Positions 2,579-61,762 of a stretch of 64,000 nt of DNA are shown here, one piece after another (position 1 is the stretch's first letter; every line of letters starts with the position of its first letter). The stretch comes from Chiloscyllium plagiosum (taxonomy: Eukaryota). Where the stretch lies: contig NC_057718.1 of the NCBI RefSeq assembly GCF_004010195.1, forward strand, positions 54,472,749 to 54,536,748, in the 5' to 3' direction. The position numbers and the translations under genes are program-made. Below the pieces are notes generated by a model. The model ran no database searches and was not told the origin of the DNA. It worked only from the letters and a program-made list of their open reading frames with translations.

Positions 2579-2661
2579 GCTGAAAATGTGTTGCTGGAAA
2601 AGCGCAGCAGGTCAGGCAGCATCCAAGTAACAGGAGAATCGACGTTTCGGGCATAAGCCCT
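2579..2661 (-). mobile_element. Short Penelope-pLTR-derived insertion with truncated hammerhead
   Basis: Minus strand AAGGGCTTATGCCCGAAACGTCGATTCTCCTG...; 10-bp TSD TCTACTAAGT at 2569-2578 and 2662-2671. Confidence 0.75.
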
Positions 2662-4903
2662 TCTACTAAGTATCTTCTGAGCCCTGTCTGTAGCCAAAGT
2701 GTGATGTCCAGTTATTAGACACAATAGACTGTATGGGCCATAACCAGAGGTTAGAATAACTTCTGTGCTTCTATGCCTCCATTTATAAAGCTAAAAATCA
2801 AAAATACCTTTTTAACAGCCTCCTCAACTTGTCCTTATACTTCCAAAGACCGATATAAATACAATGAAAGTTTTTGCACTCCCTTTAAATCATACTTGCA
2901 ATATTGCCTCTCCTCATTCTTCCTACCAAAATTAATGACATGACATTTCTCTGCTTGAAGGAGAACTTGCAGATAGTGGTGTTCCCATGCATCAACTGCT
3001 CTTACGCTTCTAGCTCTCAGGTGGTTTTGTGTTCAAAACACATTTCACTGACTTGAACACAGAAACCTAGGTCCATATTCCACTTTAGCATTGAAGGGTA
3101 GTTATGCTATTAGAGAAGAGGTCTTCTGGACAAGACATTTAACTGAGGCTCAATCTATCTCTCAAGCGAATACAAAAGATCATGTCAGTATTTCAAAGAG
3201 CAGGAGAGGTGTTCTCAGCATTCTAGTAAATTCTTAATACTCAACCAACAACACAAAAATAAAATATCTAGACATTACATTGCAGTTTTTGGGAATTTGC
3301 TGTGCACACATAAATTGGCTACCATGTTTCCTGTACAACGACTTTTCAAAAGTACTTCATTGATTATAAATGGTTTCAGGGAATGTCTGAAGGACTTGAA
3401 AAGCACTGTAAGCAACATCCATCATCCTAAAAGTCACTGCTGAACAGTTATATTTAGATATTGGGAATTCTGAAGTGAATAACTCACTCCAAGCTGTACC
3501 ATATTCCCATTAAACCTCTGATGACCCAACTTTGCTTGATGGCTCACAAAAAAGCTGATACTGTCATTTGTTCTCTTCAGGTACTGTTCCCTGTTCAAAT
3601 ATGCCTTCAACATCCCTCACCAAAGGAAGAAAAAACACTTACCCCCTCAACTCTCCAAATTACCGCCCATTTCCAACCTCCCTTTCCTGTCCAAAGTCTT
3701 TGAACTTGTTGGTGCCTCCCAAATCCATGCTCAGCAATCCTATAACTCAGTATTTAAAACTCTTAAACCAAGTTTCCATCCTGAAAGAGTACGAAAACAG
3801 CTTTTGTTTTTAAATCAACTTGTTCAAACATGTTCCGACACACCTTCAGGGAGGTGACCTCAGACCTTCTGGCCCATAGATAAAGACACAACCAATGCCA
3901 CAAGATCCCCTGAAACAACTTTTGGGATGCAATTTTTAACTTTGATGTGACTTTAACCCTCCTTATCCGTGCTTTAGTTACCTTGAGACTTGACTATTTC
4001 AATATACACCTAGCTGTTCTTGCAAGCTCTTCCTTTAATAAACTTTGGATCATCAAAAACTCTACTATCCTTATCCTAACTCACATCCAATCCCTTTCAA
4101 CCACCACTCATGTGCTCACTGTGCCCCACACTGGTTCCCTCTTAATAAACATCGCAATTTTATCATTTATCATTGTTTCCAAATCAATTCACTGACTTGC
4201 CCCTTCCTGACTCTAATATTATCTAGCACCATAAGTCTCCATTATTTGCACTGCTCAAACTCTGGCCTCAGCATTTCCAAGTATAATTGTTCTAGCATTG
4301 GCAGTGGCTTCAACTGTCAAAACCCTAAGCTCTGGCTTTCCCATCGCCAATACATCTCATTCTTTCTTGAAGATATTCTTATATGCATTTGCCAATTTGT
4401 TCAAATATATATCCCTTTAAAATAAGTTTTGTTTTAGACCACTGTTGGGAAGTTCCTTCAAGTTTTAATCTAAAGGTGCTATATAAATACAGGTTGCTGC
4501 TGTTGTGAGATGGGAGATCCTGGAAAAATTAATATCAATAAAAAGTTATTATGCTCAATGGATGATACCTCCAAATGTTACTGCGCTGCTCAGTAACCGT
4601 TCTTCAATCTTAGGGATAATGAATTTTCAGTTGGTGTCTTTACAGTAGCCATGTAGAAAGCAGTACATTTGATGGCATTCTGATCACATGGAGTTCCAAT
4701 GTCAAATCCCACAGAAAATCTGTGCGCAAGCGTAAATAATTGCCCATTGAGCATAATGATCATAAAGTATTATCCTATAATAAGACAAATGCAAATATAC
4801 TTTTAAACAATATTACAATGTCTGTGGATGTAGCTGCTTAGCTAATAAATATTTTAAATTACAATTCCTGTGCAATTGTAAGCTTTAAAAGTTGCAAGCT
4901 TAC

Positions 4904-5101
4904 CTCCGAGAAAAAGCCATGCACAATGGCGATAGGCAGTCATACAATGGGCACTCTTGGGCATTGGGACTGTAACCTGCCTGTAGTAACATTTTTAAGC
5001 ATGTTTGCTGTCCTCCATACACGGCTGAATAGACTGGGCTCACTTTATTCCTTTCTGTATCACATATTCGATCAGTGATTGGTATCAAAAATTCCAATAC
5101 C
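4904..5101 (-). CDS. ASB3: ASB3 coding exon 6 (198 nt; [30 protein letters not shown]...PLCMAFSR)
   Basis: Matches vertebrate ASB3 ([30 protein letters not shown]...); AG at 5103-5102, GT at 4903-4902; phase consistent with the previous exon. Confidence 0.93.
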
Positions 5102-5619
5102 CTGCCAAAAATCCATGTATGAAATTAGTTTTCATTTGCACACATCAGAAACACAAAAAATGTTTTTGGTTCTTAGCTTAAAATACAAATAGTGCAAGAC
5201 TTTGAATGCTCATACAGCCAATGTAATATTTATAAATTTATTCTAATCAATGTTGTAAAAACACAAGCCATAAAGAATTTTAAGTAGATTGGGCTAGATC
5301 TCTTACAAGTTGATTTAAGATAATTGTTTTGGTTAAGGTTACTCAAGAGAACCATTTCTGTATTTGAGCTGGTATAGTCATCATAGCAATGAATCTCAAC
5401 AAAATGCCAAGTAGAAACACACAGATGGCAATCTAGAAAATGAAAAATATTGTCCTCAAAAGTCAACAATTTCTGAGCAATCCTGATATGTGAAAGCAGA
5501 TAAATACAAGGCCTTTGTAATGTAAGCAATAGGGATATGCAACATTTCTTCACCTTTACTGCGAGGAAAATATATGTGGGAGTCTGAGGGTGAAACCCAA
5601 AACCCTCTCTGATGAAGAA

Positions 5620-5800: not shown

Positions 5801-5846
5801 AATTTTCCAAACATAACTTACTCAAAGTATATGTCAGAGCACTCAC

Positions 5847-14670: not shown

Positions 14671-14682
14671 GGCACACAGCCC

Positions 14683-17550
14683 TAGAGATGTACAGCACGG
14701 AAACAGACCCTTCAGTCCAACTTACACATGGCTGATGAGATTTCCTAAATGAACCTAATCCTGTTTGCCAGCATTTGGCCCATGTTCCACTAAACTCTTC
14801 CTATTCAGACATCCATCCAGATGCCTTTTAAATGTAATTGCACCAGACTCCACCACTTCCTCTGGCAGCTCATTCCATGCACGTACTACCCTTTTAAAAA
14901 TTTTCCCTCTCACCTTAAACCAATGCCCTCTAGTTTTGGACTCTCACACTTTGGGTAAAAGAACATGGCTCATCCTTTCCATTCCCCTAATGATTTTATA
15001 AACCTCTATAAGGTCCCCCCTCAGCCTCTGAATCTCCAGAAAAAATGCACCCTGTCTACTCAGCACCTCCCTATAGCTCAGACCTTCAAAGCCTGCCAAG
15101 ATCCTTGTAAATCTTTTTTGAACCCTTTCAAGTTTCACAACATCCTTCCTATAGTGGGATGACCAGAATTGCATGCAGTATTCCAATAGTGGTCTAACCA
15201 ACGTCCTGCACATGCTGCAACACGACCTCTCAACTGCTACACTCAATGCATTGACTAATTAAGACAAGCATACCAAATGCCTTCTTCACTATCCTGTCTA
15301 CCTATGACTCCACTTTCAAGGAACTACAAACCTGCACTCCAAGATCTCTCTGTTCAGCAACACTCCCCAGGACATTATCATTAAGTGTATAAGTCCGGTC
15401 CTGACTTGCCTTTCCAAAATGCAGCACCTCACATTTATCAAAACTAAACTCCCATCTGCCACTCCTTTGCCTGTTGGTCCATCTGATCAAGATCGCATTG
15501 TACTCTGAGTTAGCCTTCTCTGCTGTCGAGTACACCTTCAGTTTTGGTGTCATCTGCAAATGTACTAACCATCCCTCCTATGTTTGCATCCAAATCATTT
15601 ATATAAATGACAAAAAGCAGTGGATCAAGCACCAATTCTTGTAGAATGCTGCTGGTCTGAAAAGCAACCGTCCACCACCACCCTCTAAATTTTACCATCG
15701 AGCCAGTTTTGTATCCAAATGGCTAGTTCTCCCTGTATTCCATGTGAACTAACCTTGCTAACTAGTCTATCATGCAGAACCTTGTCGAACGCCTCACTGT
15801 AGCCCACGGAGATCACATCCACCTCTCTGTCCTCATCAATCCTGTTTGCTTCTTCTTTAAACCAACTCAATCAAGTTAGTGAGACACAGTTTCCCACCCA
15901 CAAAGCCATGTTTACCATCCTTAATCAATCCTAGTCTTTCCAAACATGTCAATCCTGTCCTTCAGAATTACCTCCAACAACTTACCAACGTCAGACTCAC
16001 CATCCTATAATTCCCTGGTTTTTCCTTACCATCTTTCTTAAATAGTGGCACCACATTAGCCAACCTCCAGTCTTCCTACACCTCATCAGTGCCTATCAAT
16101 GATACAAATATCTCAGCAAGGGACCCAGAAATCTATTCCCTAGCTTCACAGGATAGACATGAGCAGGTCTGGGTATTTATCCACCTGTATGCATTTTAAA
16201 ATGCCCAGCTTCTCCTCCACTGTAATGTGGACAGTTTTCAAGATGTCACTATTTATTTCCCAAGTTCTCCAGCTTCCATATCTTTCTTCACAGTAAACAC
16301 TGATGCAAAATACTTGCTTAGTATCGCTCCCACTTCCTGTGGTTCCACACATAGGTGGCCTTGCTGATCTTTGAGAGGCCCTATTCTCTCCTTAGTTACC
16401 ATTTTATCCTTAATGTATTTGTAGAATCCTTTTGGATTCTTCTTAACCCTCCTTAACATGTCCCATGTCCCCTTTTTGCCCTCCTGATTTCCCTTTAATG
16501 TATACTTCTATTCCATTTATACTCTTCTAGCTAACGTATGCTTCTTTCTTTTCCTTGACCAAAATCTCAATTTCACTCATCATTCAGCATTCCTCACACC
16601 TACCAGACTTGCCCTTCACCCAAACAGGAACATACTGTCTCTGGACTCTATCTCATTTTTGAAGGCTTCCCATTTTCCAATTGCCCCTTTATCTGCAAAC
16701 ATTCCTCCTCCCCTCCTATCCACCATCAACTTTTGAAAGTTCTTGCCTAAAACTGTCAAAATGGTCCTTCCTCCAATTTAACTTTTAGATCTGGTCTATC
16801 CTTCTCCATTATTATTTAAAAACTAATAGGATTATGGTCACTGGCCCCAAAGTCACCCCCACTGACACCTCAGTCACCTGCCTTGCCTTATTTTCCAAGA
16901 GTAGGTACAAAACTTTACCTTCTCTAGTAGGTACATTCACAAACTGAAATCAGAAAGTTTTCTTGGACACGCTTAAAAATTCCTCTCCACCTAAACCCTT
17001 AACACAATGGCAGTCCCAGTCTATGTTTGCAAAGTTAAAATCCCCAACCATAACCACCCTACTATTCTTACAGATAACTGAGATCTCCTTACAAATTTGT
17101 TTCTCAATTTCCCTCTGACTATTAGAGGATCTATAATACAATCCCAATAAGGTGATCATCCCTTTCTTATTTCTCAGTTCCACTCAAATAACTTCCCTGG
17201 ACATATTCCCAGAAATACCCTCTGTAAGTACAGCCGTAATGTTATCCCTATTCAAAAACACCAAGCCTCCTCCTCTCTTGCCCTCTCTTTTTATTGCATA
17301 TACCCTGGAACATTAAGCTGCCAACCCAGTCCATCCCTGAGCCACATCTCTATAATTGCTAAAATATCCAGTCCCATGTTACCAATCATGTCCTGAGTTC
17401 ATTTGCCTTACCTGTTAGGCCTCTTGCAATGAAATAAATGCAGTTTAATTACAAGTCCTACCCTGTTCTCTGCTTTGTTCCTGCCTGCCCGACCAGTCTC
17501 AGACTGATCTCTTTCCTCACTATCTCCCTGGATCCCAACCTCCACCCCCT
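14683..17550 (-). mobile_element. CR1 LINE, most of ORF2 (APE endonuclease + RT), inactivated
   Basis: Serial minus-strand ORFs: VVMVGDFNFANIDW, KKNPKGFYKYIK, AFDKVLH, FVIYINDLD..FADDTK, LERVQKRFTR. Confidence 0.92.
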
Positions 17551-28964: not shown

Positions 28965-29220
28965 TATAGAATCCTACAGTGTGGAAAGAGGCCATTCAAC
29001 CCACTGAGTCTGCACTAACCCTCTGAAGTGCATCCCGCCTAGACCTTTACCCTACACCCATAGCCCTACTTTTACCATGGCTTTCCTATTGACCCTGCAT
29101 ATTCCTGGACACTATGGAGCAATTTACCATGGCCAATGCACCTAACCTGTACATCTTTGGTCTGTGGGAAGAAACCCACCCGGATGCCGGGAGAACATGA
29201 AAACTCCACACAAACAGACA
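28965..29220 (-). mobile_element. Degenerate HE1/V-SINE fragment
   Basis: Similar to 54917-55200 (CACCTAACCTGTACATCTTTGG, AAACTCCACAC). Confidence 0.65.
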
Positions 29221-29407
29221 AAAGGTTGATACAAAAGGTTGGCTTTATCAACAGGGCTAGAATACAAATTAAACCATTCTTCAGTTATACTGAAGCCTGC
29301 TCAATTCAGAGCTGAACATTCAATTGTGGCTACCCAAACCCAAAGGATGGATTGGCCGTGCAAAGGCTACTGCACAAATTTCTCAAAATGATACCTAGGG
29401 CTATCAC

Positions 29408-29545
29408 TAAAATAAAACAAAGAACTGTAGATGCTGAAAATTTGAAATGAAAAAAATTGCTGGAGAAAGTTAGCAGATCTGGCAGCAATTGTGAAGAGAA
29501 AGTAGAGTTAACGTTTTGATTCTGGTGACCCCTCTTCAGCACCAT
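29408..29545 (-). mobile_element. PLE pLTR-type fragment with degenerate hammerhead
   Basis: Minus strand CTGAAGA-GGGGTC-ACCA-GAATC-AAAACGTTAA at 29539-29508, followed by the shared pLTR tail. Confidence 0.55.
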
Positions 29546-29797
29546 GACAAATCTGATTCTGCTGAACTGTCAATAAAAGGCAGTTAACAAAATTAAGACA
29601 GAATTCCAGAAAATTAAGACAGTAGAGGCATCATCTAACTTATTTGTTTGATATGGAGGTGCTGGTGTTGGACTGGGGTGTACAAAGTTGAAAATCACAT
29701 AACACAAGGTTATAGTCCAACAGATTTATTTGGAAGCATTAGCTTTCGTAGTGCTGCTCTGGAAGCCAGTGCTTCCAAATAAGCTTGTTGGATTATA

Positions 29798-29934
29798 TTC
29801 CTGAATTCCTGATGAAGGGCTTTTGCCCGAAACGTCGATTTTACTGCTCCTCGGATGCTGCCTGAACTGCTGTGCTCTTCCAGCACCACTAATCCAGAAT
29901 CTGGTTTCCAAAATCTGCAGTCATTGTTTTTACA
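29798..29934 (+). mobile_element. Short PLE-pLTR element (family A) nested in family B
   Basis: 13-bp TSD TTGTTGGATTATA at 29785-29797 and 29935-29947. Confidence 0.85.
29806..29840 (+). ncRNA. Minimal type I hammerhead ribozyme motif, intact core
   Basis: CTGATGA-A-GGGC-TTTT-GCCC-GAAA-CG-TC^GA: full catalytic core, 4-bp stem II, palindromic ACGT stem III, very short stem I. Confidence 0.8.
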
Positions 29935-30292
29935 TTGTTGGATTATAACCTGGTGTTGTGTGATTTTTAACTTTATTTGTTTGAAGTGATAAAAGGATTT
30001 CCCACAATGGGAAATTTAGAAGGAGGGAGCACTTTCCTAAATTAATGTAGTGAAAATATGGAACATTGTCTCTCTCCCCACCTACCTGCTAGACCACCCA
30101 ACACCCTACATGCATCGCCAGCCTGGGCCTGACCAGACCTCCCCCAGCACCAGACCCGAAATGACCCCCTCTCCGACCACCAGACCTGGTATATTGATCC
30201 CCATCAATATACCAGACCTCCCCTCCCCAGTACTGACACCTGCCCTCCCTAACCTGATTTCTTCTATCCACATTGACCTAATCTAAGTACTT

Positions 30293-30495
30293 GGAGATAG
30301 CAAGGACTGCAGATGCTGGAATGTTGGAGTTGATAAAATGTGGAACTAGAAAATGCATAGCAAGTCAAGCATCAAAGAAGCAGAACAGTCAATATTTCAG
30401 GTCAGGATCTTTCAACTGAAAAGTCGACTCTCCTGCTCTTTTGATGCTGCTTGACCTTCTGTGCTTTTTCCAGCTCCACATCTTATCGACTCTAA
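30293..30495. mobile_element. Fold-back pLTR-derived element (family A)
   Basis: Imperfect arms (GAGTTGATAAAATGTGGAACTAGAAAA..AGCATCAAAGAAGCAG / CTGCTCTTTTGATGCT..TTTTCCAGCTCCACATCTTATCGACTC); centre near eroded hammerhead remnants. Confidence 0.7.
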
Positions 30496-30639
30496 TCTAA
30501 ATACTGCATCACTTACTTGGCCCCTTTGCCATCTGGAAGCTGAACTGCTTCCCACATGGCATTCTTCCCCAAACCTGACATCCTACTTACATGGCATTCT
30601 ACCACCTAATCATTTAGCACTTACTTACCTTGAACCTAC

Positions 30640-32184: not shown

Positions 32185-32350
32185 ATAAAAACAGAAAATG
32201 CTGCAAATACTCACCAGGCCAGGCAGTATCGGAACAGCAGCTGCAGGACTACCAACCTGAAACTTTAATTCTCTTTTTCTCTCCGCAGATGATGCCAGAC
32301 CGTTTGCGTGTTTCCTAAGTTTTCTGTAGAGTTTCCAGCATTCGTGATGT
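32185..32350. mobile_element. Old fold-back pLTR-like element
   Basis: AAAACAGAAAATGCTGCAAATACTC..GGCAGTATC versus GATGATGCCAGACC..TTTCCAGCATTCGTGATGTTTT; imperfect arms. Confidence 0.5.
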
Positions 32351-33336: not shown

Positions 33337-33426
33337 AGTCGAGAGTGTGGTGCTGGAAAAGCACAGCCGGTCAAGCACCACACTCTCGACTTTAATCTCC
33401 AGCATCTGCATTCCTCACTTTCGCAT
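33337..33426. mobile_element. Short fold-back pLTR element
   Basis: Arms GTCGAGAGTGTGGTGCT / AGCACCACACTCTCGAC; 15-bp TSD AATGTCTAGAATAAG at 33322-33336 and 33427-33441. Confidence 0.85.
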
Positions 33427-33580
33427 AATGTCTAGAATAAGTCTAGGCCAATAATATTTGCCTGGCACCATAGCATATGTGACACTAAACAAAACTAAAG
33501 AACTGCAAATTCTGGAAATCAGAAACGCAAGCTGGAAGAACAACTCATTTTCCGTTTGGGGATAGCCTTCAGGCCTTAAT

Positions 33581-33690
33581 TAGGAGAAAGTCAGGACTGT
33601 AGGTGCTGGAGTTGGAAAGGCACAGCAGATCAGGCAGCATCCAAGGAGCAGGATGCTACCTGACCTGCTGTGCTTTTCTGGCAGCACCCT
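33581..33690. mobile_element. Fold-back pLTR element (family A)
   Basis: GCACAGCAGATCAGGCAGCATCC / GGATGCTACCTGACCTGCTGTGC inverted pair. Confidence 0.7.
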
Positions 33691-33994
33691 TTTGAATCCT
33701 CAGATCTCGATGTAGACTTCAACAATTTTTATGGCCAGACCATCTTCTTTGTCATCATCTGGGAAGCTACCAAAATGAGCATGAATCAAACATAAGTAAA
33801 TCATACTATTAGTCTTTGGCCTAATTTTCGCAATAAGCAGTGAAGTAACCATGGTTTACTGTTGATCTCAAAGCTGACTGCAGGAAGTTAAATGCATTAT
33901 TCACCGTAGGGTTTTATTTAAACTTCAGAGTGTTCAATAAATAATTAGGGCATACAGGTATTGAGACTGGCTCTAATGCAACAAGGGGTACATC

Positions 33995-37197: not shown

Positions 37198-37239
37198 CGC
37201 ATATCACTCTACTAAAGGCCATTTTTGCTCCTTCACAAT

Positions 37240-44700: not shown

Positions 44701-45928
44701 GTACTAGTATACGGTGCAAAGTATTCCGTCACACTCCTGTCTTGTGCCTTGTAAATGATGGACAGGCTTTGTGGATTCAGGAGGTGAGTTACTTGCCACA
44801 GTATTCCTAACCTCTGACCCACTATTATAACCACTGTGTCTATGTGGTGAGTCCAGTTGAGTTTCTGGTCAATGATAACCCCAGGATGTTGATAGTGGAG
44901 GTTCAGGGATGGTATTACCATTGAATGTCATGGGGAGGTGGTTAGATTGATGGCCGTAGCCTGACATTTGTGTGGCACAAATGTTACTTGCCACTTGTCA
45001 GCACAAGCCTGGATGTTATCCAGATATTGTTGCATTTGAACACTGCTTCAGTATCTGAGGAGTCATGAATGGTGCTGAACATTGTGCAATCATCAGTGAG
45101 CGTCTGCACTTCTGACCTTGTGTTAATGCAGCTGTTTCATCGCACTTCTGACTTGGGTCTCGTAGGTGGTGAACAGGCTTTGGGGAGTCAGGTAGTGAGT
45201 TATTCACTACAGGATTCTTAGCCTCTGAACTGATCTTGTAGCTATAGTATTTATATGGCTAGTCCAGTTCAGATTCTGGTCAATGGTAACCCCTGGATGT
45301 TGCTAATGATGCCCTTTGAATGTCAAGGGGGCATGATTGGATTCTGTCTTGTTGGAAATGGTCATTCCCTGGCATTTGCGCAAATACTTGCGATTAGTCA
45401 GCCCAAATCTGGATGTTGTCCAGCTCTTGCTGCATTGAGAGAGACTGTATATTCAGTATCTCAGGAGTCATGAATGATGCTGAACATTGTGCAAGCATGA
45501 GAGAACATACCCACTTCTGAACTTATGATGGAGGGAAGGTTATATTACAAGGCAGCTGAAGATGATTGGGCCTAGAACATGACTGTGAGGAACTCCTTCA
45601 GAAATGTCCTGGAGTTGAGATGACTGACCTCCAACAAGCATTATCATCTTCTTTGTGTCAGGTATGACTTCAAACAGGAAGAGTTTTTCCCAGGTTCCCA
45701 CAGACTCAAATTTTGCTAGATATCCTTGATGCTTTGCTTGATCAAATGCAGCCTTGTTTTTAAGGCCAGTCACATGCCTCACCTCTGGAATTTAGCTCCA
45801 GTGTGCATGTTTGAAGCAAACCTGTAATGGCATCAGGAGCTAATTGATTGGCCCTGGCAGAACCCACACTGAGCACCAGTGAACATTTTGGATATAAGTT
45901 GTTCACTAAGCTAGAAGGTTCGTTTTCA

Positions 45929-45962
45929 GACGTTTTGTCACCATATTAGGTAACGTCATCAG
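45929..45962 (-). ncRNA. Hammerhead motif in 3' pLTR (G12 mutated)
   Basis: Minus strand CTGATGA-C-GTTACC-TAATAT-GGTGAC-AAAA-CG-TC. Confidence 0.65.
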
Positions 45963-47352
45963 CGAGCCTCCGGATGAAGCATTGGTGGTATGGCCCACTT
46001 TTTGTGTGTTTAGGTTTCCTTGGGTTGGTGGTGTAATTTCCTTTTTTTTTCTTATGTGGTAAATGGGATCTAAGTCAATGGGTTTCTTGACAGAGTTCCA
46101 GTTGAAATGCTTCTAGGAATTCTCGTGCATGTCTCTGTTTGGCTTGTTCTAGGATGGATGTGTTGTCCCAGTCAAAGTGGTATTGTTCCTGACCAGTGTG
46201 TAAGGATACTAATGAAAGTTGGTCTCATTTTGGAGATGTCTTTGATGTAGGGGAGAGTGGTTAGGATTCCTGGACATGTTTTGTCTGCTTGTTTGGGTTT
46301 GTTGCTGAGAAATCGGCAGACTGTGTTCATTGGGTACACGTTCATTTTGCATACACTGTACAGGTGATTTTACTTTTCTCTTTGTAGCTCCTCTGTGCTG
46401 CAGTGTGTGGTGGCTCGTTGAAATAAGGTTCTCGTGCAGCATCGTTTATGGGTGTTGGGATGATTGCTTCTGTCATTCAGTATTTGGTCTTGTGTTGTTT
46501 TCCTATAGACACTGGTTTGAAGTTTTCCATTGGCTGTTCGCTCTACTGCGACATCGAGGAAAGGCAGTTTGTTGTTGTTTTCCTCCTCCTTAATGAATTT
46601 TATGCCAGTAAGGGTATTATTGATGGTCTTGAAGGTTTCCTCTAATTTATTTCGTTTAGTAATGACAAAGGTGTCATCCATGGAGTGGATCCAGAGTTTG
46701 GGTTGGATGGTTAGCAGAGCTGTTTGTTCGGGTCTCTGCATTACTGCCTTTGCTAAGAACCCTGATATCGGAGATGCTATTGGTGTTCCGTTGGTTTGTC
46801 TGGAGTTTTGTTGTTGAAGGTGAAATGGGTGGTAAGGCATAGGTCCACTAGCTTGATGATATTATTATTGCTGATGAAGTTGGTGGTGTTTGATGTATAT
46901 GCCTTTGGTTCTTCTAATAGTGTAGTCAGTGTTTTCTTGGCCAGGTTGATGTTGATAGATGTAAACAGGGCTGTTATGTCAGAGGAGACCATTATTTCAT
47001 CCTCTTCTATCTCGGTGTCTTTGGTCTTCAGATGTTCTTGGGTGGAGTGGATTGTGTGATGTGAGTCTTCTACTCGGTGTTCTAGTCTTTGATGTAACTC
47101 CTTGGCCAATCTGCAAGTTGGTGTTCCAGGTAGCGAGACTATGGGTCTGAGGGAGGCTCCTAGTTTGTGAATTTTGGGTAATCTGTAGAAGCGGGATGTG
47201 TTGGGTCCGTCTGGTTTCATTTACCACCCCCCAGATTTTACAAAAAAGAAGGAAATTACATCCCCACAGGAAAATGACATCACCAACCCAAGGATACCTA
47301 AACACGCAAATAGAAAGCGGGCCATGCCACCAGTGCTTCAACCGGAGGTTTG

Positions 47353-47386
47353 CTGATGATGTTACCTAGTATGGTGACGAAACATC
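47353..47386 (+). ncRNA. Hammerhead motif in inverted pLTR
   Basis: CTGATGA-T-GTTACC-TAGTAT-GGTGAC-GAAA-CA-TC; core intact, stem III CpG decayed. Confidence 0.7.
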
Positions 47387-49052
47387 TGAAAATGAACCTT
47401 CCAGCTTAGTGAGCAAACCTACATCCAGAACCTCAACCTGAACTACAAATCTTCTCAAAACTCGCTAGTGAACACTTTATTGCTAAATAAGTGCTGCCTA
47501 ATAGCACTGTTGATGACACTTTCCATCATTTTACTGATGAAAGTAGACTGATGCAGTAATTAGTGGGGTTGTATTTGACTTGCTTTTTGTGTATAGGACA
47601 TTGGTATCTACCCAATACTGTGGAAAATTACCTATGTTGCTGCTGTACTGAAACATCTTGGCAAGTGGCATAGCAAGTTCTGGAGCAGATATCTTGAGTA
47701 TTATTGACAGAACGTCATCAGGTCCTTTTAGAGTATGTAACACCTCCACCTGTTTCTTGATCTCTCATGGAGCGACTTAAATTGGCCTAAAGACTGTTTT
47801 GGCTAAATCTATCTTGCTGGGGATGTCTAGAGATGGATCATCCACTCAGCACTTGAGGCTAAAAATGTTGCAAGTACATCAGCTTTATTTTGTGCATGGG
47901 CTTTCCCCATCTTTGAGAATGGAGATATTCTTGGAATCTCATCACATCCAGTGGGTTGTTTAATTGTCCACCACTACGTGGCAAGACTAAATCACTTAGC
48001 CCTCTCTGGCACATGTTGCTTATGCTGTTCGACATGTAAATAGTCCTGCTGTGTGCCTTCACCAGATTGGCACTTGTTATTTTTCAGTATGCCTTGTGAC
48101 ATACATGGCTTTGTGCACTTTTCTTTGAACCAAGGTTGATCCTCTGGCTTTATGCTGAGAGTAGAGTCAGGTATATGCTGGCCCGTGAAATTACATATTG
48201 TGTGCTGAAGTAAACTATGCTACCAGTAATGGCCCACAGTGCCTAGTCTTGAGTTGTTAGATCTGTTTGTAGGCCAGACAGTAGTGTTCCTTTCCAAAAA
48301 ACACAGTAGTGAACCACATGGGCTTGTACAACAATCAAGATTGACTTTCTTCATATCTGTTGTGGTAGGATTCAGACATAATCTGGGTATCTGGATTACT
48401 AGCTTAGTGATAATACCACTATGCCATTGGGGTATTTTTTTCCAAGTTGAATTTCTGATCTTGCCCCAAGATGTTGGGAGTCAAGCATATTTGTACAAAA
48501 AATCAAACCAAGGCTTTACCTGGAATAGGATTGCTTCTGGTAAGAATGTTGGATGGGGAGAGAGAAAGAAGGGTGGAATTTCTAATATGGGTAGGGAAGT
48601 TTCATAACAATTCATCTTTTACACATTGCATGTCAGGTCAGTAATTTAAAATGTATAATTCAAGATAGGAGATAACGGGTTACTAACATTGTGCAATTGT
48701 AGTGTTGTATGACAACATTATAAAACAGCACCAATAACAATTAGGGTGTGAAATATACAAAGGACTTGTTTTATTTCTTGCTAATAAATGTTCTACAGCA
48801 TTAAGATTTGCAATGCTATTAATATGGGATGATACAAAACATGAATATTTGCATTGATACATTAACATAATTAAGGTTGTATTATAGAATATTGAACCAA
48901 ATTTTAATGCAGATAGCCCATTCCAAGTTTATGAAATATGAATAATGTCCTTTAAAATTTATTTTCTTTAGTACATAAATACAATTTATTATTGAATATG
49001 ATTTATTCTAATTTTGGACAAATACATTACCGTATTGTATGTTTATATTCAG

Positions 49053-49436
49053 GGCCTCGTGTGGGGTGTGGTGTATAAACTTCCAGATGGAAAAGAAGAA
49101 GAAGTGAAGGAATATCTTGACTTACGAGAAAAGGATGGTTATAGGACTATTACAGTTACGTTTTATCCAAAGGATACTTCAATAGATCCTTTCCCTGTGA
49201 TGCAATACATAGGAACATGTGATAATCCTAATTACTTGGGTCCAGCACCCTTGGAAGACATGGCTTTGCAGATTTTAAATGCTGTTGGGCAAAGTGGAAG
49301 GAACACAGAGTACCTATTTGAACTTGCTGACTCCTTACGAAAGATCGTTCCAGAAGATACAGATGAGCACCTCTTTTCATTAGAGAAAATGGTCAAGGAA
49401 CTCTTGGAGAGAAATGGAAAAAGTAACTGTATATGA
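49053..49436 (+). CDS. CHAC2: CHAC2 exon 3 (384 nt including stop); total CDS 555 nt, 184 aa
   Basis: [30 protein letters not shown]...[28 protein letters not shown]; CAG acceptor; E74 and E83 retained. Confidence 0.97.
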
Positions 49437-49447
49437 AGGATTCCTAC

Positions 49448-49453
49448 AATAAA
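49448..49453 (+). terminator. Proximal polyadenylation signal candidate for CHAC2
   Basis: AATAAA 12 nt after the stop codon. Confidence 0.4.
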
Positions 49454-49795
49454 GTAGGGCTGGAATAGAGACTATCTTCAATTTAAACCCTCACTCTCTT
49501 ATCTAATTTATACTTGCTGTGTCATTATTATTCCTGACAGTGTCCACCAAAACATAGAGTAAAAGGTATTACAAGCAATTCTGATGACCATAGTCTGATA
49601 TTAAAAATACATGTGTCCATGTATTCTGCATATCAAAATGTTCTCATTATTTAACCATGGACCTTGGTGAAGTCATGCTTACTCTGTAAATATAATTGTT
49701 GACAAACCTGATGACCGGATTGGTTTGCACTGACATACTCTGAATATTGGGTATTATTTTAAAATAAGTAATTTTTAATGTTTCCATAAATTTTA

Positions 49796-50066
49796 TGATG
49801 TGGTGGAGCCAGTGTTGAACTGGGGTGGGCAAAGTTAAAAATCACACAACACCAAGTTATAGACCAACAGACTTATTTGGAAGCACTATCTTTCAAATAT
49901 CAAGTAGCTGTGGAACAGGGCCATAAGACACAGAACTTATAGCTAAATTCTGTCTCTTCTGGTCCTGCTCCACAACTATCTGATAAAGGAGCAGTGCTCT
50001 GAAAGCTAGTGCTTCCAAATAAACCTGTTGGACTAATAACCTGGTGTTGTGTGATTTTTAAATTTG
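49796..50066. mobile_element. Fold-back PLE-derived element (family B) with hammerhead-like motif
   Basis: Long imperfect palindrome; CTGATAA-A-GGAGC-AGT-GCTCT-GAAA-GC-TA at 49980-50008; 13-bp TSD TCCATAAATTTTA at 49783-49795 and 50067-50079. Confidence 0.82.
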
Positions 50067-51392
50067 TCCATAAATTTTAAGTGGAGAAGTTGCAAATCAA
50101 GTCTCAATGTGGCAGGATTATCGGATTATCCAGTAATTGTTACTTATACAGCTGCACCCCTTGCCTTTTTAGTTGCTGGAAACAAATGACATCCGAGGAT
50201 TGTATCACATGTGCAATAGATGAATCTTGGAATACAAAATTAGTCCAAGAGGTTTATGTTGTCTGTACTGCATATGATGAAGTATTCTTTACCGAACCAT
50301 TGTAAACTATTGGCCCATAGCACATCTGAATACACCCTGGAGAATACTTAACTAAAAAGCAAAAAACGCTGGAAATATTCAGTAGCATCTTTTGAAAGAG
50401 AAACAGAGTTAAGCTTTCAGATCAATGATGTAGCTCTGTTGGCTGGATGACTGGTTTATAATGCTGCCAACAACATGGGTCCAATTCCCACACTGGCTGA
50501 GGTCACCATAATGGTCCTGCCTTCTCAACCTCTCCCCTTGTCGGTGTCTTGGTGACCCACTGATTAAACTTACCACTGGTTGTCTTTCTGATGAGAGAAC
50601 AGTCCTATGGTCCTTTAGTACTATGTCAATTTTATTTTTACCTTCATAACACTGCTTTCATTTCTTTCAAATGTGAAGTTCTGGCAGTACTGCTGTTGAT
50701 ATTCACAGTTCCTTTTGATCAATGCTTTCTTTCCATGTGCCATCACAAGAATCTCTCTTTTTGACTTTGCAGTGTCATCCCCTTTTATTTAATCATTTTA
50801 GTCTTCTACATATAACAGATCATTAGTTCTGGTGTAAGGATATTAATGTGAAAAATTCTATTTTTCCAAGCATTTTTAAAAATGTTTTTCAGTTTTGAGT
50901 GTGAGCAGCATTATGTTCTTGTAATAGAAAGTATTTATATTGACTATCCTATGTAATTTATCTAAGTCCAACTAGAAAACATTTGAGTTGCACTCAAGCT
51001 TGTGTACCTGGTTTACTCTGCCTCATACTTCAGGATTTAAATACTAATTGATATGCTGATTTTTTTTCAAATACATACATTGATATTTGGAAAAGATGAG
51101 ATCTTAAACAATGTTCCAATAATTATTTTCAGACTGTAAAAGTTATCATTAGAAACATCTCCTCATGGTTTAAGTTATAGTAGAAGTATCTGAATTTTCA
51201 CTTGCACTGAAAACCATTTAAATTGGGATTCCATTAAGGTACCTTTGTAATTCACATTTGTCAAGCTGCTGTTGTCTAGCATGTGTGATCCTGTGTTTCA
51301 TGAATGTAACCTATTGTAATATTGGCATTATCAAACTTTATTTACCAGTTTTGAACAAACCTCAAAGAAACACTAAGCAATTTTTAGAAAAA

Positions 51393-54916: not shown

Positions 54917-55200
54917 AGATTAGATTACTTAGTGTGGAAACAGGCCCTTTGGCCCAACAAGTCCATGCCAACCCGCCGAAGCGCAACCCACCCATACATT
55001 TACCCGTTCACCTAACACTACGGGCAATTTAGCATAGCCAATTCACCTGACCTGCACATCTTTGGACTGTAGAAGGAGACCAGAGCACCCGGAGGAAACA
55101 CACACACAGATACGGGGAGAATGTGCAAACTCCACACAGTCAGTTGCCTGAGGTGGGAATTGAACCTGGGTCTCTGGCACTGTGAGGCAGCAGTGCCACC
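54917..55200 (-). mobile_element. HE1-type (V-SINE) tRNA-derived SINE
   Basis: Minus strand B-box GGTTCAATTCC, core GTGTGGAGTTTGCACATTCTCCCCGT, LINE-like tail and (ATCTA)n end. Confidence 0.85.
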
Positions 55201-55204
55201 CACT

Positions 55205-56159: not shown

Positions 56160-58793
56160 TGTGCCATCACGCAGAAGTGAAGAACTGCACTCGATGAAGT
56201 GTACAATGCTACTAACAGTCTTGCAATGGAATACCCCAAAGCCTTGTTCGTTGTAGCCGATGACTCCAACTAGGCCAACCACAAGAATGTGCTACTAAAA
56301 TTCCACCACCACATCTCGTGTCTCACCAGTGGTCCTTACATTCTTGACCATTGTTGCACAGTCATAAAAAAGTGCCTACTACTCCATCCCCCATCCACAC
56401 TTTGGAAAATCAGATCACAATGCTGTGTTCCTCCTTCCAGCTTACAAGCAGAAATTGAAACATGAGGATCCAGTACAGAAAGTAGTGCAATGTTGGTCTG
56501 AGGGCTTCTACGGGACTGCATAGTCAGTGGACTGGTCCATATTCAAGAACTCAGTGGCCAACCTAAACAAGTATGCCATTACAGACTTCAATAGTAAGTA
56601 TACAGATGACTGCATGCTGAAGAAGTCAATCCAAACATTCCCCAAACAGATATCATGGCTGAAGGGTGACGTTATAGGGGTTTACAAAATTATGAGGGTA
56701 ATGGAAAGGATAAATAGATAAAGTCTTTTCCCTGGGGTTGGGGAGTCCAGAACTAGAGGGCATAGGTTTAGGATGAGAGGGGAAATATATAAAAGAGACC
56801 TAAGGGGCAACGTTTTCACACAGAGGGTGGTTTGTGTATGGAATGAGCTGCCAAAGAAAGTGGTGGAGGCTAGTACAATGCAGCATTTAAAAGGCATTTG
56901 GATGGGTGTATGAATAGGAAGGGTTTGGAGGGATAGGTGGGACTAGATTGGGTTGGGATATCTGGTTGGCATAGACAGGTTGGACCAAAGAGTCTGTTTC
57001 CGTGCTGTACATCTCTATGGACTCTAATCAGGGATCCATTCCCTACTGAAGTCCAGTTTTTTGGCATTCAAGTCAGGCAACCCTGACCTATACAGGAAAT
57101 CTAGGTACAACTTTCACAAGACTATCAGGGATGCCAAGAGGCAATACCAAACTAAGCTTGAGACCCAAACCAACCTCACAGACACCCATCACTTGTCTCA
57201 AGGCTTGCACAATATAATGGGCTACAAAGCGAAGTCGAACAGAATTGTAGGCAACAGTCCATCCCTACCTGATGAGCTCAATGAATTCTACACTCACTTT
57301 GAACTGAAGGACAGTGTCCCATTAGCCTCGGGCACCTATACACTCGGTCACTGCTGCAGATGTTAGATCGGCCTTAAGGGTGAACCTGTGGAAAGTGACT
57401 AGAGTCCTTAGTCATGCACTCAGACTCCGTGCAGACCAGCTGGTGGGAGTATTTGCAGATGTCTTCAGTTTCTCCTTACTATGATCTGAAGTCCCCACTT
57501 GCTCCACCATCAATTGAGTGCCAATGACTACTGCCCAGTGAATCTGACATCCATGAGTATGAAGTACTTCGAGAAGTTGATCATGACTCACATCAACTCC
57601 AGTCTCCCAGGTTGCCTTGATCTCCTGCAATTCGCCTCCTGGTGCAACAGGTGCATGGTAGGGAGTCACCATCTCCCTGGCCCGACAATCATCCCTGGAA
57701 CATCTGGACAACAAGGATACCCAAGTCAGGCTCCTACTTATTGAACGCAGCTCCACCTTCAACACCATAATTCGAAACAAACTCATCTCCAAACTCCGGG
57801 ATCTAGGTCTCTGTTCCCCCTCTCTGTAACTGGATTCTTGACTTCCTGATCAACAGACTGCAGTCAATAAGGATACGTGACAACACCATCTCCATGATCG
57901 TCCTCAACTACAGTGCCCGTGAGGCTGTGTACTCAGTCCCCTACCATACTCCTTATACAAGCACAACTGTCTGGCCAAATTCTGCACCAACTCCATTCAC
58001 AAGGTCACTGTTGTAGGTCAGATATGAAACAATGAGAGGGAGTAAGGAACGTGATAGAGTGCTTAATGGCATGGCATAAAGGTAAGATCTCTCCATCAAC
58101 ATCAGCAAAACAAAGAAGCTGGTCATTTACTTCAGGAAGCAGAGTGGAGGGTACCCTGTCTGCATCAATCACACTGAGATGAAGATGATCGAGAGCATCA
58201 AGTTCCTGGGAATGACAATCACCAACATTAAGTCCTGATCCACCCACGTTGACACTACGTTCAAGAAAGCCTCTACTTCCTCAGGAGGCTAAAGAAATTC
58301 GACATGTCCATAAAGACTCTTACAAATTTATATAGATGCATCACAGCGTGATATGCTCTTACCAAGGCTAAAGGAAACTACAGAGAGTTGTAAACACAAC
58401 TCAGTCCGTTATGCAAACCAGCCCCCCCACCAATTTACTTCACCTATATTTCCTGCTGCCTCAGAAAAGCAACCAACACAATCAAAGACCTCTCCCACCA
58501 TCCCGGCTATACTACTTTCACCCTCTTCTATAGAGCAGAAGATACAACCTTTTGTATCCACATACAAACATATTCAAGAACAGCTTTTTCCCTGCTGGTA
58601 TATCAGACTTTTGAATGCACCTCTTTAATATTAATGTTGATCTCTCTCTGCACCTTCTCACCAGCTGTTACATTGTATCCTACATTCTGGTCTGTTACAC
58701 TGATGCTCTTGTATAGTACGATCGGCCTGTAAAGCAAATGAGACATTTTTCACTGTACCTCGGTGCATATGACAATAATAAATCAAATCAAAT
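56160..58793 (+). mobile_element. Rex1/Babar-like LINE, degenerate, interrupted by CR1
   Basis: DWSIFK, AFKSGNPDLYRKSRY..IRDAKRQY, NDYCPVNLTSMSMKYFEKLIMTHI..LDLLQFA; (AAATC)n tail at ~58780-58793. Confidence 0.75.
56656..57027 (+). mobile_element. CR1 3' fragment nested in the Rex1-like LINE
   Basis: LKGDVIGVYKIMR.. through CTGTACATCTCTATGGACTCTA tail. Confidence 0.88.
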
Positions 58794-59429: not shown

Positions 59430-61295
59430 CTCCAAGGAGGCTGAGAAATAAATAGGAGGGAGGTGTGGCTGGGGGTTGGTAGTGAGGAAAATGATAGTAG
59501 ATTGAGGTAGGGGGTGATGGAAAAGCACAACCGGTAGGGGGAGAGGAAATGAGGAAACTAGTGAAATCAACATTGATCCCGTGTTTTTGGAGGGTCCCAA
59601 GGCAAAAGATGATCTGTTCTTCTTGCAGGCATCAGGTGGCTAGGCTTTCGTGGTGGAGGAGGCCAAGGACTTGCATGTCCTTGGCAGAGTATGAGGGGGT
59701 GTGAATTGGCCAGCAACTGGGCAGTGGGGTTGTTTAATGCGTGTGTCCCAGAGATGATCTCTGAAATGTTACGCAAGTTGGCGGTCCTGTCTCCCCAATG
59801 TAGAGGAGACCACATTGAAAGAAATGGACAGAGCAGATGAGGTGTTTGGATGTGTTGGAAAATCTCTGCCTTTGGGGCCTTGGATGGAGGTGAGGGGGGG
59901 GGGGGGGGGGGGGGGGGGAAGAGATGTGGGTGCACGTTTTACACCTCTTGTGGTGGCAAGGGAAGGGGCTAGGAGAGGAGGGTTGGACCTAATGAGGGAG
60001 TCTCTGCGGAATGCTGAAAGGGGTGGGAAGGGAAATATATCTCTGGTGGTGGGGTCTGACTGTAGGTGGTGGAAATGATGGAGGATGATGCATTGTATCT
60101 GGAGATTAGTGGGATGGAAGGTGAGGACTGGGGGTTCTATCCTTGTTGTGGTTGGAGGAATGGGGTTCAAGGATAGCAGTGCAGGAAGTGGAGGAGATGC
60201 ACTGGAGGGCATTGCTGACGAGGTGTGGGGAAATTGCAGTCCTTGGAGTAGGAGGCCATACTTCAAGGACCACAATTTGTCCTCCTACATGGTCAACAAT
60301 GCCATCCAGAGCATCTCCTCCACTTCCCGCACCTCCACCCTTGAATCTCATCCCTCCAACCACAACAAAGATAGAGCCCCCCAGTCCTCACCTTCCACCC
60401 CATCAATCTCAAGATACAATACATCATCCTCCACCATTTCCACTACCTACAGTCAGATCCCACCACCAGAGATATATTTGTCTCCCCATCCCTTTCAGCA
60501 TTCTGCAGAGTCTATTCCCTCCGTGACTCCCTCATTAGGTCCACACTCGCCCCCCCACCCCACCAACCCACCCTCGAATCCTGGCACCTTCCCTTGCCAC
60601 TGCAAGAGGTGTAAAACCTGCACCCACACCTCACCAACCACTTCCCTCCACCTCCACCTCCACCCCGACCCCATCCAAGGCTCCAAAGGATACTTTTACA
60701 ACCAGCAGAGATTTTCTTACATATCCAAACACCTTATCTACTGTGTCTGTTGCTCTTGATGTGGTCTCTTCTACACTGGGGAGACAGGACGCCAACTTAC
60801 AAAATGTTTCAGAGAATATCTCTGAGGCACACGCACTAAACAACCCCCCACCCTGTGGCCAATCACATCAACTCCCCCTCCCATTCCGCTAAGAACATGC
60901 AACTACTGGGCCACCTCCACTGTCAAAGTCTAGCCACCCAATACCTGGAGAAAGAACACCTCATCTTCTGCCTTGGGACCCTCCAACCACATGAAATCAA
61001 TGCCAATTTCACCAGTTTCCTTGTCTCCTCTCCACCCAGCTTATCCCAGATCCAATCCTCCCACTCAGCACCGCCCTCTTGAACTGTCCTACCTGTTCCA
61101 CCTATCCACTCAATCCTCTGCTCTGACCTATCACCATCACCCTACCTTCATGTACCTATCGCCTTCCATGCATCTTCCTTCTGCCCTCTCTCACCAACAC
61201 CCCCCCCCCCCCCCCCCAGCTCCTGATGATGGGCTTATGCCTGAAATGTTGACTCTCCTGCCCCTTAGATGCTGCATGACCTGCTGTGCTTTTCG
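59430..61295. mobile_element. Neptune-type Penelope-like element 3' region as a head-to-head inverted duplication
   Basis: Plus arm from ~60260 reads PGTFPCHCKRCKTC...HLIYCVCCS*CGLFYTGETGRQL (Cys-rich linker + GIY-YIG) and ends in a pLTR with a hammerhead; 59430-60260 is a diverged reverse complement. Confidence 0.85.
61220..61253 (+). ncRNA. Hammerhead motif at the 3' end of the Neptune arm
   Basis: CTGATGA-T-GGGC-TTAT-GCCT-GAAA-TG-TT-GA; a CpG-decayed version of the 29809 motif. Confidence 0.7.
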
Positions 61296-61640
61296 ACCCT
61301 GGCAACATGATGGCAGTGGTACTAAGGATGTGTGCTCTGGAACTAGCCACACACCAGAGCAAGCTGTTCCAGTACAGCTACAAAACAGCTGTCTCCCTGA
61401 CAATGAAAAACATTGCCCAGGTAAATCCTAATCATAAAAAATTAATTCTGGACCATTCCTGTCCTACCAACAGATTGGTGAATGGCAGTGTTGATAATAG
61501 TTATCAAATGATACTTAAACAGCAATAACCTTTCAAATTCTGCCAGGGCATTTTTGCCAGTGGCTACATTACACCCTGGGATCAAGTGTAAACGGAAGAG
61601 CTGAAGTCTACAGGTAAGGTCCCTGTGTAACCACATTTAG

Positions 61641-61762
61641 GAGGGCTTTTGCCCGAAACGTCGATTTTCCTGCTCCTCGGATGCTGCCTGACCTGCTGTG
61701 CTGTTCCAGCACCACTCTAATCTAGAATGTGGTTTCCAGCATCTGCAGTCCTTGTTTTTACC
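61641..61762 (+). mobile_element. Short family A pLTR element, 5'-truncated within the hammerhead
   Basis: AGGGCTTTTGCCCGAAACGTCGATTTTCCTGCTCCTCGGATGCTGCC..., highly similar to 29816-29933. Confidence 0.8.

What the first reader, a model, noticed from the sequence alone, without database searches (positions are those of the whole stretch)
2579..61762. Hammerhead-ribozyme-bearing mini-elements and a putative Neptune partner (retrozyme-like system)
Seen: at least three hammerhead variants recur in the window. Family A has stem II GGGC-TTWT-GCCC (2641-2661, 29809, 61223, 61642), family B has GGAGC-AGT-GCTCT (49980), and family C has GTTACC..GGTGAC (45962, 47353). The family A sequence is the terminus of the GIY-YIG-encoding arm at 60260-61295, yet it also occurs alone as 80-200 bp non-coding insertions with TSDs of 10-15 bp. 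Known: PLE pLTRs carry minimal type I hammerheads with palindromic stem III that are thought to act as dimers, and retrozymes are non-autonomous hammerhead retroelements. Inference: an abundant ribozyme-linked retroelement system in this genome, either very short PLE truncations or true non-autonomous elements. I cannot tell whether these families are already catalogued.
Basis: partly seen in the sequence, partly recalled or inferred. Interest (0 to 1): 0.75.

Follow-up and report, generated by a model that had tools for sequence, protein, structure and literature searches.

The report
Shark Penelope retrotransposon hammerhead end-stubs
These short repeats are end-pieces of Penelope-type jumping genes carrying an already described minimal self-cutting-RNA motif, not a separate ribozyme-driven element; most copies begin at the motif's first letters, one family ends cellular RNAs at a poly(A) site just behind it, and they are likely short DNA copies that ran off the front of the element's RNA.

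Summary
The motifs are real but mostly damaged, and they are not retrozymes. Only 29809 has an undamaged core; the A copies at 2641 and 61642 lack CUGAUGA, B and one C copy carry core mutations. Family C is the inverted terminal-repeat pair of an RT-bearing Poseidon-type remnant, not a mini-element. Family A ends a Neptune-type endonuclease arm. The stubs show standard Penelope-like (PLE) anatomy: head-to-head pairs, optional tail, 10-15 bp TSDs (6 of 15 loci), no tandem units. Public runs add three things: stubs outnumber the coding body about 45-fold (A); most start within about 10 nt before the core, not at the cut site; and family B has a TATAAA box about 32 nt upstream and a poly(A) site used in RNA (1551 of 2812 reads) about 27 nt after the predicted cut, before both element ends. 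Best reading: integrated run-off ('strong-stop'-like) cDNAs of the front of PLE RNA, likely dead on arrival. Cleavage is untested; Dfam/Repbase could not be checked. The scan reported the same readings on other DNA of this and related genomes. Known kind, with a testable clue to PLE replication.

The parts
2579..2661 (-). Family A stub, no CUGAUGA (starts in helix II), no tail; 10-bp TSD at 2569-2578 and 2662-2671
1924..1988 (+). Family A tail-only stub, starts well past the motif; no TSD found
29405..29541 (-). Fourth, A-related family (D) stub with CTGAAGA core at 29539-29533, worn helix II; no TSD found
29652..29972 (.). Family B head-to-head pair; both arms start in helix II (offsets +9 and +15), left arm with tail; 12-bp TSD at 29640-29651 and 29973-29984
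29798..29934 (+). Family A stub nested in the B right arm; only undamaged core (29809-29836, predicted cut after 29836); starts 4 nt before C3 after a short duplication of its own first 7-8 nt; tail present; 13-bp TSD at 29785-29797 and 29935-29947
30299..30520 (.). Old family A head-to-head pair, junction in the helix II region, no core
32199..32344 (.). Old A/D-like head-to-head pair
33337..33426 (.). Family A head-to-head pair starting past the motif, one arm with tail; 15-bp TSD at 33322-33336 and 33427-33441
33490..33707 (.). Composite: short endonuclease C-terminal remnant and an A head-to-head pair (33587-33707) starting past the motif
45890..47250 (-). Family C long arm: 5'-truncated, internally deleted Poseidon-type element (RT about 47238-46202, endonuclease C-terminus 46224-46100, worn hammerhead at 45962-45929, no tail)
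47251..47466 (+). Family C inverted terminal repeat with worn hammerhead (47353-47386) and tail; 12-bp TSD (1 mismatch) at 45878-45889 and 47467-47478
49796..49945 (-). Family B left arm: TATA box at 49941-49936 (family majority TATAAA), helix II deleted, tail present
49946..50066 (+). Family B right arm: hammerhead motif 49980-50008 (G8 to A in this copy), AATAAA 50018-50023, family poly(A) site at 50033-50036, GU-rich tract, no tail; 13-bp TSD at 49783-49795 and 50067-50079
59537..60249 (-). Neptune-type linker/endonuclease arm, inverted partner, 75% identical to the plus arm; ends before the hammerhead
60260..61294 (+). Neptune-type arm: RT-thumb end, CX4CX2C linker, GIY-YIG endonuclease with stops and frameshifts, pyrimidine-rich 3' region, worn family A hammerhead at 61223-61250
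61642..61764 (+). Family A stub, no CUGAUGA (starts at offset +7), tail present, no TSD found

Best explanation
The stubs are terminal-repeat pieces of at least four Penelope-like retrotransposon families, inserted singly or head-to-head with target duplications, and most are likely short cDNAs that the element's enzyme started inside the front copy of the repeat and ran off the 5' end of uncut RNA, so they would be dead-end by-products rather than a self-copying ribozyme element. Shown: PLE identity of A and C, insertion anatomy, excess of stubs over body, 5' ends piled at the front of the motif, copies spanning the cut site, and for B a TATA box upstream and a used poly(A) site upstream of both 3' ends. 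Inferred: the repeat is laid out like U3-R-U5 (promoter, RNA start at helix I, hammerhead, poly(A) site, two RT start sites); a polyadenylated 3' end lacks the RT start sites, so priming would occur at the front copy or on read-through RNA; run-off there gives 80-140 bp stubs, fold-back or re-priming at helix II gives the palindromic pairs, and a template jump or tandem read-through would be needed for long copies. The ribozyme is likely selected only in active master elements and works as a dimer or with protein help; inserted copies decay.
For: Arm homologues are RT plus C-terminal GIY-YIG proteins; 102 of 117 hits with the core motif (of 150 listed) have the upstream CX2-5CxxC. C matches RT+GIY-YIG proteins without that linker at 70-80%, and its frame opens at helix II with the tailed end 108-111 nt from the ATGs, as in Anolis Poseidon where RT starts 111-118 nt into the ORF on unprocessed RNA (PMC11167929). 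Depth on the A motif-to-tail bin is 22.2 M against at most 0.50 M on the endonuclease body (X1), 16.1 M against 0.36 M (X11), 2440 against 47 (raw RNA X21). Loose ends before 61642 (2052, 2188, 944, 284 records) agree only over the last dozen letters, then dissolve into A-rich sequence (agreement 0.46-0.51); B does the same before 49980/49986 (413-440 contigs each, agreement 0.38-0.41). At 49936 the majority letter makes TATAAA in 5697 of 6417 (X1) and 3071 of 4193 (X11) depth units, 38 nt before C3. 1551 of 2812 laid RNA reads leave B into poly(A) at 50033-50036, where DNA contigs go on in element sequence. The 29798 stub repeats its own first 7-8 nt, as two run-offs at one end would.
Against: In the window itself 5' ends are spread: of 16 A/D-like arms aligned (one a long arm, one a weak match), best-alignment starts run from -2 to +73, one at +28 next to the cut offset (an ambiguous D-type copy) and about half past the cut, which plain truncation also gives. 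Depth ratios are inflated by the age of the reference arm (two arms only 75% alike) and by clipping at four mismatches near 49975-49985; the tool says contig depth is no copy number and that some loose ends in X1 were not counted. Only the top loose-end rows were shown (24 of 3642 and 18 of 814). Contig counts favour old copies. No RNA 5' end was seen (table 6 empty in both lays). A TATA box was tested only for B; Drosophila Penelope has a TATA-less internal promoter and an intron ending at helix I (PMC2377424, PMC4209133), and the A arm has a pyrimidine tract and AG just before helix I, so a splice boundary could also explain the 5' pile-up. No coding parent of B was found. No poly(A) pile-up is among the rows listed for A. 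RNA evidence is one sample (X22 gave 0 reads).
Confidence: 0.6

Rival explanations
1. Ordinary extreme 5' truncation of 3'-primed PLE cDNA: the enzyme starts at the 3' repeat and falls off early, often at the hammerhead hairpins.
For: High 5' truncation, inverted copies and solo repeats are standard for PLEs (PMC8557442, PMC3846280). Starts in the window are spread over +5 to +73 and several junctions lie in helix II.
Against: It does not predict a pile-up just upstream of helix I in two unrelated families and two species, 32 nt from a TATA box, nor a 45-fold or larger step. In B a polyadenylated 3' end lacks both start sites, though read-through RNA would supply them.
Confidence: 0.2
2. SINE-like non-autonomous PLE derivatives: the stubs are themselves transcribed and recopied in trans by the PLE protein, family B being the best candidate.
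For: Very high abundance, fairly fixed ends, RNA reads present; repeat sequences suffice in cis for mobilisation (PMC3846280); non-autonomous PLEs exist in Chlamydomonas (PMC8557442); no coding parent of B seen; Penelope has an internal promoter (PMC2377424).
Against: Typical B stubs start downstream of the TATA box and their poly(A) site would cut off the RT start sites; A and C are collinear with coding elements; G8 of B is no better kept than its neighbours (89% against 87% and 91% in X1).
Confidence: 0.13
3. Non-LTR retrozymes: tandem hammerhead units cut to monomers, circularised and reinserted.
For: A 2026 preprint finds tandem units, derived from PLE repeats, in one cartilaginous fish (10.64898/2026.07.22.740005); a few backward joints are listed on A (table 5c).
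Against: No tandem unit in the window; no circular permutation in any stub; copies span the cut; no listed loose-end pile-up at the cut; minimal rather than canonical helices (PMC7229834).
Confidence: 0.05

Closest known systems
Minimal hammerheads (min-HHR) in terminal repeats of metazoan PLEs (Cervera and de la Pena 2014, PMC4209133; parts 1-2 of 4 read)
   Same: Type I core, extra base before helix II, palindrome in place of helix III, several co-varying families per genome, thousands of solitary motifs taken as truncated PLEs, reported from fish Neptune/Poseidon, coelacanth and Xenopus.
   Different: Sharks are not named in the parts read; 5' end positions, promoter and poly(A) site were not mapped there.
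Poseidon_Ac of Anolis (Frangieh et al. 2024, PMC11167929; parts 1-2 of 4 read, supplement text search found none of my terms)
   Same: Family C: frame opening at helix II, cut about 26-28 nt after the start codon, tailed end about 110 nt into the frame, two 3' ends; uncut RNA is the template.
   Different: The parts read do not describe run-off stubs or a poly(A) site; family C here is a dead, deleted copy.
EN+ PLE insertion anatomy (Arkhipova et al. 2013, PMC3846280; Craig et al. 2021, PMC8557442; passages)
   Same: Head-to-head inverted 5'-truncated copy, 30-40 bp tail on one arm, TSD of about 8-10 bp, solo repeats; Neptune/Nematis linker motif.
   Different: Here most insertions consist of the repeat alone, TSDs run 10-15 bp, and stubs outnumber the body by tens to hundreds.
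Animal non-LTR retrozymes (Cervera and de la Pena 2020, PMC7229834, passages; Li et al. 2026, 10.64898/2026.07.22.740005, parts 1-3 of 5, supplements not seen)
   Same: Short, non-coding, type I hammerhead, related to PLE repeats.
   Different: Defined by tandem 150-450 bp units and circular RNA; these stubs are dispersed monomers or inverted pairs of 80-140 bp, mostly without a whole motif.
Clec2 3' UTR hammerhead of rodents (as described in PMC6765202, passage)
   Same: A hammerhead cut site upstream of a poly(A) signal, so that cutting would remove the tail.
   Different: Family B is a mobile repeat with a minimal motif 10 nt before the signal; cutting is not shown.

Membership tests
EN+ Penelope-like element | RT with C-terminal GIY-YIG endonuclease | tested here: met
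   C: RT in window, relatives RT+GIY-YIG. A: arm matches C-termini of 590-891 aa RT+GIY-YIG proteins. Pfam GIY-YIG scores are often under the curated cut-off, and the worn window frames give no GIY-YIG hit themselves.
EN+ Penelope-like element | Coding parent for families B and D | tested here: inconclusive
   None in the window; no whole genome held. Filed by anatomy (pairs, tail, TSD, motif); D also by likeness to A.
EN+ Penelope-like element | Inverted 5'-truncated copy, one-sided 30-40 bp tail, TSD | tested here: met
   Pairs at 29652, 33337, 45890, 49796 with one tailed arm and 12-15 bp TSD; no TSD found at 9 of 15 loci.
Neptune clade (family A) | CX2-5CxxC linker before the GIY-YIG core | tested here: met
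   CX4CX2C in both arms; 102 of 117 core-bearing hits. Shared with Nematis.
Neptune clade (family A) | RT phylogeny separating Neptune from Nematis | not tested
   No RT core in the arm and no named references at hand.
Penelope/Poseidon clade (family C) | No CX2-5CxxC linker | tested here: met
   Absent in 3 of 3 closest relatives examined; the window copy has this region deleted.
Minimal type I hammerhead | CUGANGA, extra base, helix II, GAAA, palindromic helix III, UH, helix I | tested here: met
   Whole at 29809, worn at 61223; family majority restores G8 in B (89-95%). Other listed copies fail singly.
Minimal type I hammerhead | Self-cleavage, as dimer or with protein help | not testable with these tools
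   Predicted folds of single and paired copies do not give the active form; no RNA ends piled at the cut, but these libraries could not show them.
Non-LTR retrozyme | Tandem units each with a whole hammerhead | tested here: not met
   None in the window; not excluded elsewhere in the genome.
Non-LTR retrozyme | Cut-to-cut monomer and circular RNA | tested here: inconclusive
   No such joint among the rows listed; poly(A)-primed library and contigs are poor tests.
Catalogued Dfam/Repbase family | Match to a curated consensus | not testable with these tools
   No such library is offered.

The most novel reading that the evidence does not exclude
The PLE 'pseudo-LTR' is a working U3-R-U5 unit: TATA box, RNA start at hammerhead helix I, poly(A) site about 27 nt after the cut, then two RT start sites. 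Shark genomes are filled with integrated strong-stop cDNAs of it, so PLEs need a retrovirus-like strand transfer or read-through to make long copies. Family B stubs have also seeded poly(A) sites that end cellular transcripts, each with a minimal ribozyme placed to remove the tail.
Probability: 0.4. Interest if true: 0.7.

Novelty: new member of a known kind. Interest (0 to 1): 0.38.

Why it matters
How PLEs copy themselves and what their hammerhead does are open questions. If stub ends record the RNA start and the RT start sites, a shark genome is a very large natural record of the first step, and it yields direct tests (cap mapping, template choice in vitro). A used poly(A) site just behind the motif ties the repeat to 3' end formation of RNAs and predicts which transcripts could be cut. 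As a claim of a new retrozyme system the finding does not stand.

Tried and rejected
No whole genome was held, so no copy-level statistics. Rfam: no hammerhead hit. Exact family A patterns: 0 loci in metagenome and viral contigs. Word-index protein searches with the Neptune arm found nothing; full HMMER search found 285. Pfam on the worn window frames gave no GIY-YIG hit. Folding of A, B, C stubs is not better than shuffles for A and B (z -0.95, -0.38) and weakly so for C (z -1.94); co-folding gave no active dimer form: no support either way. No RNA holder was listed for the stretch searched; X22 gave 0 reads on B. Rejected: family C as mini-element; excess conservation of the core among inserted copies (G8 89% against neighbours 87% and 91%; G12 changed in 12% of X1 depth); CHAC2 ending in the 49946 copy (depth 0-0.18 on the unique flank in 2% of one run; most reads under 95% alike), which is undecided rather than excluded; genomic A-tract priming as the source of the poly(A) (DNA contigs continue in element sequence). 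Lunse et al. (PMC5785218) was not held; its dimer result is taken from a review (PMC6765202). Sequence look-ups in earlier findings gave nothing.
Full report
Setting. The window is animal DNA spanning a CHAC2-like gene (exons near 32930, 40100 and 49052-49436; ChaC family) and what I recall as the first exon of ERLEC1 (62082 on; name recalled). Its RT remnant is 70-80% identical to proteins that NCBI assigns to Stegostoma and Chiloscyllium, so it is a shark, likely a carpet shark (inference). No whole genome was held; genome-wide statements rest on public runs laid on two stretches.

Check of the observation. A descriptor for the minimal motif, written after seeing the hits, finds 29809 and 61223 (0 in 40 shuffles) and, with one mismatch, 49980 (mean 0.15). 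But the copies at 2641 and 61642 begin inside the motif (offsets +5, +7) and have no CUGAUGA; 49980 has G8 to A; 45962 lacks G12; 47353 has lost the palindrome. One undamaged core remains in 64 kb. Profile searches find 17 A-like, 6 B-like (one weak) and 2 C-like stretches, none on the reversed window. TSDs of 10, 12, 13, 15, 12 and 13 bp flank 6 of 15 loci; 9 have none; random pairs reach 10 in 16 of 297 and 12 in 1 of 297.

What the families are. Family A ends a 1-kb arm (60260-61294) that has a head-to-head partner (60249-59537, 75% identical). The arm matches the C-termini of 590-891 aa RT plus GIY-YIG proteins, and 102 of 117 core-bearing hits among the 150 listed have the CX2-5CxxC linker, which marks Neptune and Nematis (PMC8557442, passages). 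Family C is one 1.6-kb insertion: a 5'-truncated, internally deleted RT/endonuclease arm and an inverted repeat, within one TSD; its relatives lack the linker (3 of 3), so Poseidon type. Its frame opens at helix II and the tailed end lies 108-111 nt from the ATGs, close to Anolis Poseidon, where RT starts at two sites, 111-118 nt into the frame, on unprocessed RNA, and the ribozyme cuts only with protein present (PMC11167929, parts 1-2 of 4). Families B and D have no coding partner here but show the same anatomy: head-to-head arms, a 35-40 bp tail on one arm, TSD. This is the described PLE insertion pattern (PMC3846280, PMC8557442, passages). Across families helix II, helix I and the palindrome differ in sequence while the core is kept, which points to selection in master elements (inference). 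Among inserted B copies G8 is kept no better than its neighbours (89% against 87% and 91% in X1).

Evidence from public runs, family A. The motif-to-tail bin has depth 22.2 M (X1) and 16.1 M (X11, another species label) against at most 0.50 M and 0.36 M on the endonuclease body and 11-13 on unique flank; raw RNA reads give 2440 against 47. These depths are no copy numbers and the old reference arm under-collects, so the 45-fold step is an upper-leaning figure. Loose ends before 61642 number 2052, 2188, 944 and 284; they agree over about the last 12 letters (the core and 4-6 nt before it) and then dissolve into A-rich sequence (agreement 0.46-0.51). A smaller RNA set (131 reads) has a pyrimidine-rich upstream part, as long copies would. 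3' loose ends fall at 61711-61723 and past 61752: the untailed and tailed ends. No pile-up at the cut (61663) is among the 24 rows shown of 3642. Ten of 15 listed joints are opposite-strand, 8 of them within or between motif copies; three backward joints appear in table 5c of X1.

Family B. Depth falls from 8.0 M at 50012-50022 to 10-25 thousand 15-35 nt before the core (X1), partly through clipping at this copy's mismatches. Loose ends before 49980 and 49986 (413-440 contigs each, both species) dissolve within about 6 nt before the core (agreement 0.38-0.41). In the longer copies the majority letter at 49936 makes TATAAA (5697 of 6417 in X1, 3071 of 4193 in X11), 38 nt before C3 and about 32 nt before the usual 5' end. 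In the poly(A)-primed run X21, 1551 of 2812 laid reads leave the element into a poly(A) run at 50033-50036, 10-15 nt after AATAAA (ATTAAA in 22-29%), before a GU-rich tract; DNA contigs continue in element sequence there. First-mate depth on the minus strand drops from 1876 to 379 across the site. 2519 of the 2812 reads are under 95% alike to this copy and several positions vary at 19-60%, so more than one locus contributes; how many, and whether host genes or elements, is not known. Reads run across the predicted cut (after 50008) without a step; cut products of 27 nt could not be seen. This is one sample; X22 gave no reads.

How it likely works. Shown: identity, anatomy, excess of stubs, 5' pile-up at the motif's front, two 3' ends, TATA box and used poly(A) site in B. 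Inferred: RNA starts at helix I; a polyadenylated 3' end in B lacks both RT start sites, so the enzyme would prime at the front copy of the repeat (as the Anolis data allow) or on read-through RNA; run-off gives the stubs, re-priming at the helix II hairpin gives pairs such as 29652-29972, whose junction lies in helix II. Stubs without the TATA box would be dead ends. I put this at 0.6. Against it: in-window starts are spread, no RNA start was seen, Drosophila Penelope has an internal TATA-less promoter and an intron ending at helix I (PMC2377424 passages; PMC4209133), and the A arm has an acceptor-like tract there. Plain truncation (0.2), SINE-like spread (0.13) and retrozymes (0.05) are the rivals.

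Comparison with what is known. Minimal hammerheads in PLE repeats, in several families per genome and mostly solitary, were described in 2014, with about 4,000 in coelacanth and 9,000 in Xenopus (PMC4209133). Retrozymes are defined by tandem units and circular RNA (PMC7229834); a 2026 preprint derives them from PLE repeats and finds them in one cartilaginous fish (its supplements, which name the species and families, were not seen and may bear on novelty). The stubs work like PLE insertion products and fail the tandem test. Nine searches of the held library listed no paper on shark PLE hammerheads, and none joining PLE repeats with 'strong-stop' in a relevant way or with a used poly(A) site; the library lacks most subscription journals, and Dfam/Repbase were not available.

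Earlier notes of the scan. I noted the run-off idea before reading them. Many report the same reading, with a cap-derived extra G and U6 fusions at the cut site that I did not test, and several report the B poly(A) site. One prompted my TATA check. They are not counted as support.

Verdict. Real motifs, known class, not a retrozyme system; new members of a known kind with a testable clue on PLE replication and 3' end formation. Interest 0.38.

Noticed in passing
window 1658-1762: Near-perfect 104-bp palindrome (gives spurious miRNA hits), next to short direct repeats at 1500-1600; likely the end of another repeat element.
   Followed up: no
window 14680-17530, 20500-23300, 34500-37200, 41270-42935, 44110-44706, 56657-57027: Many copies, 68-85% alike, of one LINE with an apurinic-type endonuclease (Pfam hit at 34508-34936); CR1/L2-like by recall.
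   Followed up: partly
window 54931-55204, 62948-63207, 29109-29184: Copies of a tRNA-type SINE resembling the shark HE1 family (name recalled).
   Followed up: no
window 44729-45527: Two adjacent 390-bp copies, 70% alike, of a LINE-like segment.
   Followed up: no
window 49434-50066: The B right arm lies in sense 510 bp after the CHAC2-like stop codon; a nearer AATAAA is at 49448-49453. Whether CHAC2 RNA can end in the B copy is undecided.
   Followed up: partly
window 61642-62082: An A stub sits about 320 bp before the start codon of the ERLEC1-like first exon, at the edge of its GC-rich region.
   Followed up: no
window 61200-61220: Pyrimidine tract plus AG directly before helix I in the Neptune arm, like a splice acceptor; the tailed A end is also pyrimidine-rich.
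   Followed up: no
window 49796-49812 (loose ends): The family B tail ends at or next to an ATG in the loose-end line of X1, possibly the start codon of the unseen parent element.
   Followed up: no
window 42939-43010: A worn D-type stub whose alignment starts at offset +28, near the predicted cut; boundary ambiguous.
   Followed up: partly
window about 35960-36110: A run of 148 N (assembly gap) inside a LINE copy.
   Followed up: no
protein P0009: A skate protein model joins a DUF4518 domain to a Neptune-type endonuclease end; may be an annotation fusion or an exapted piece.
   Followed up: no
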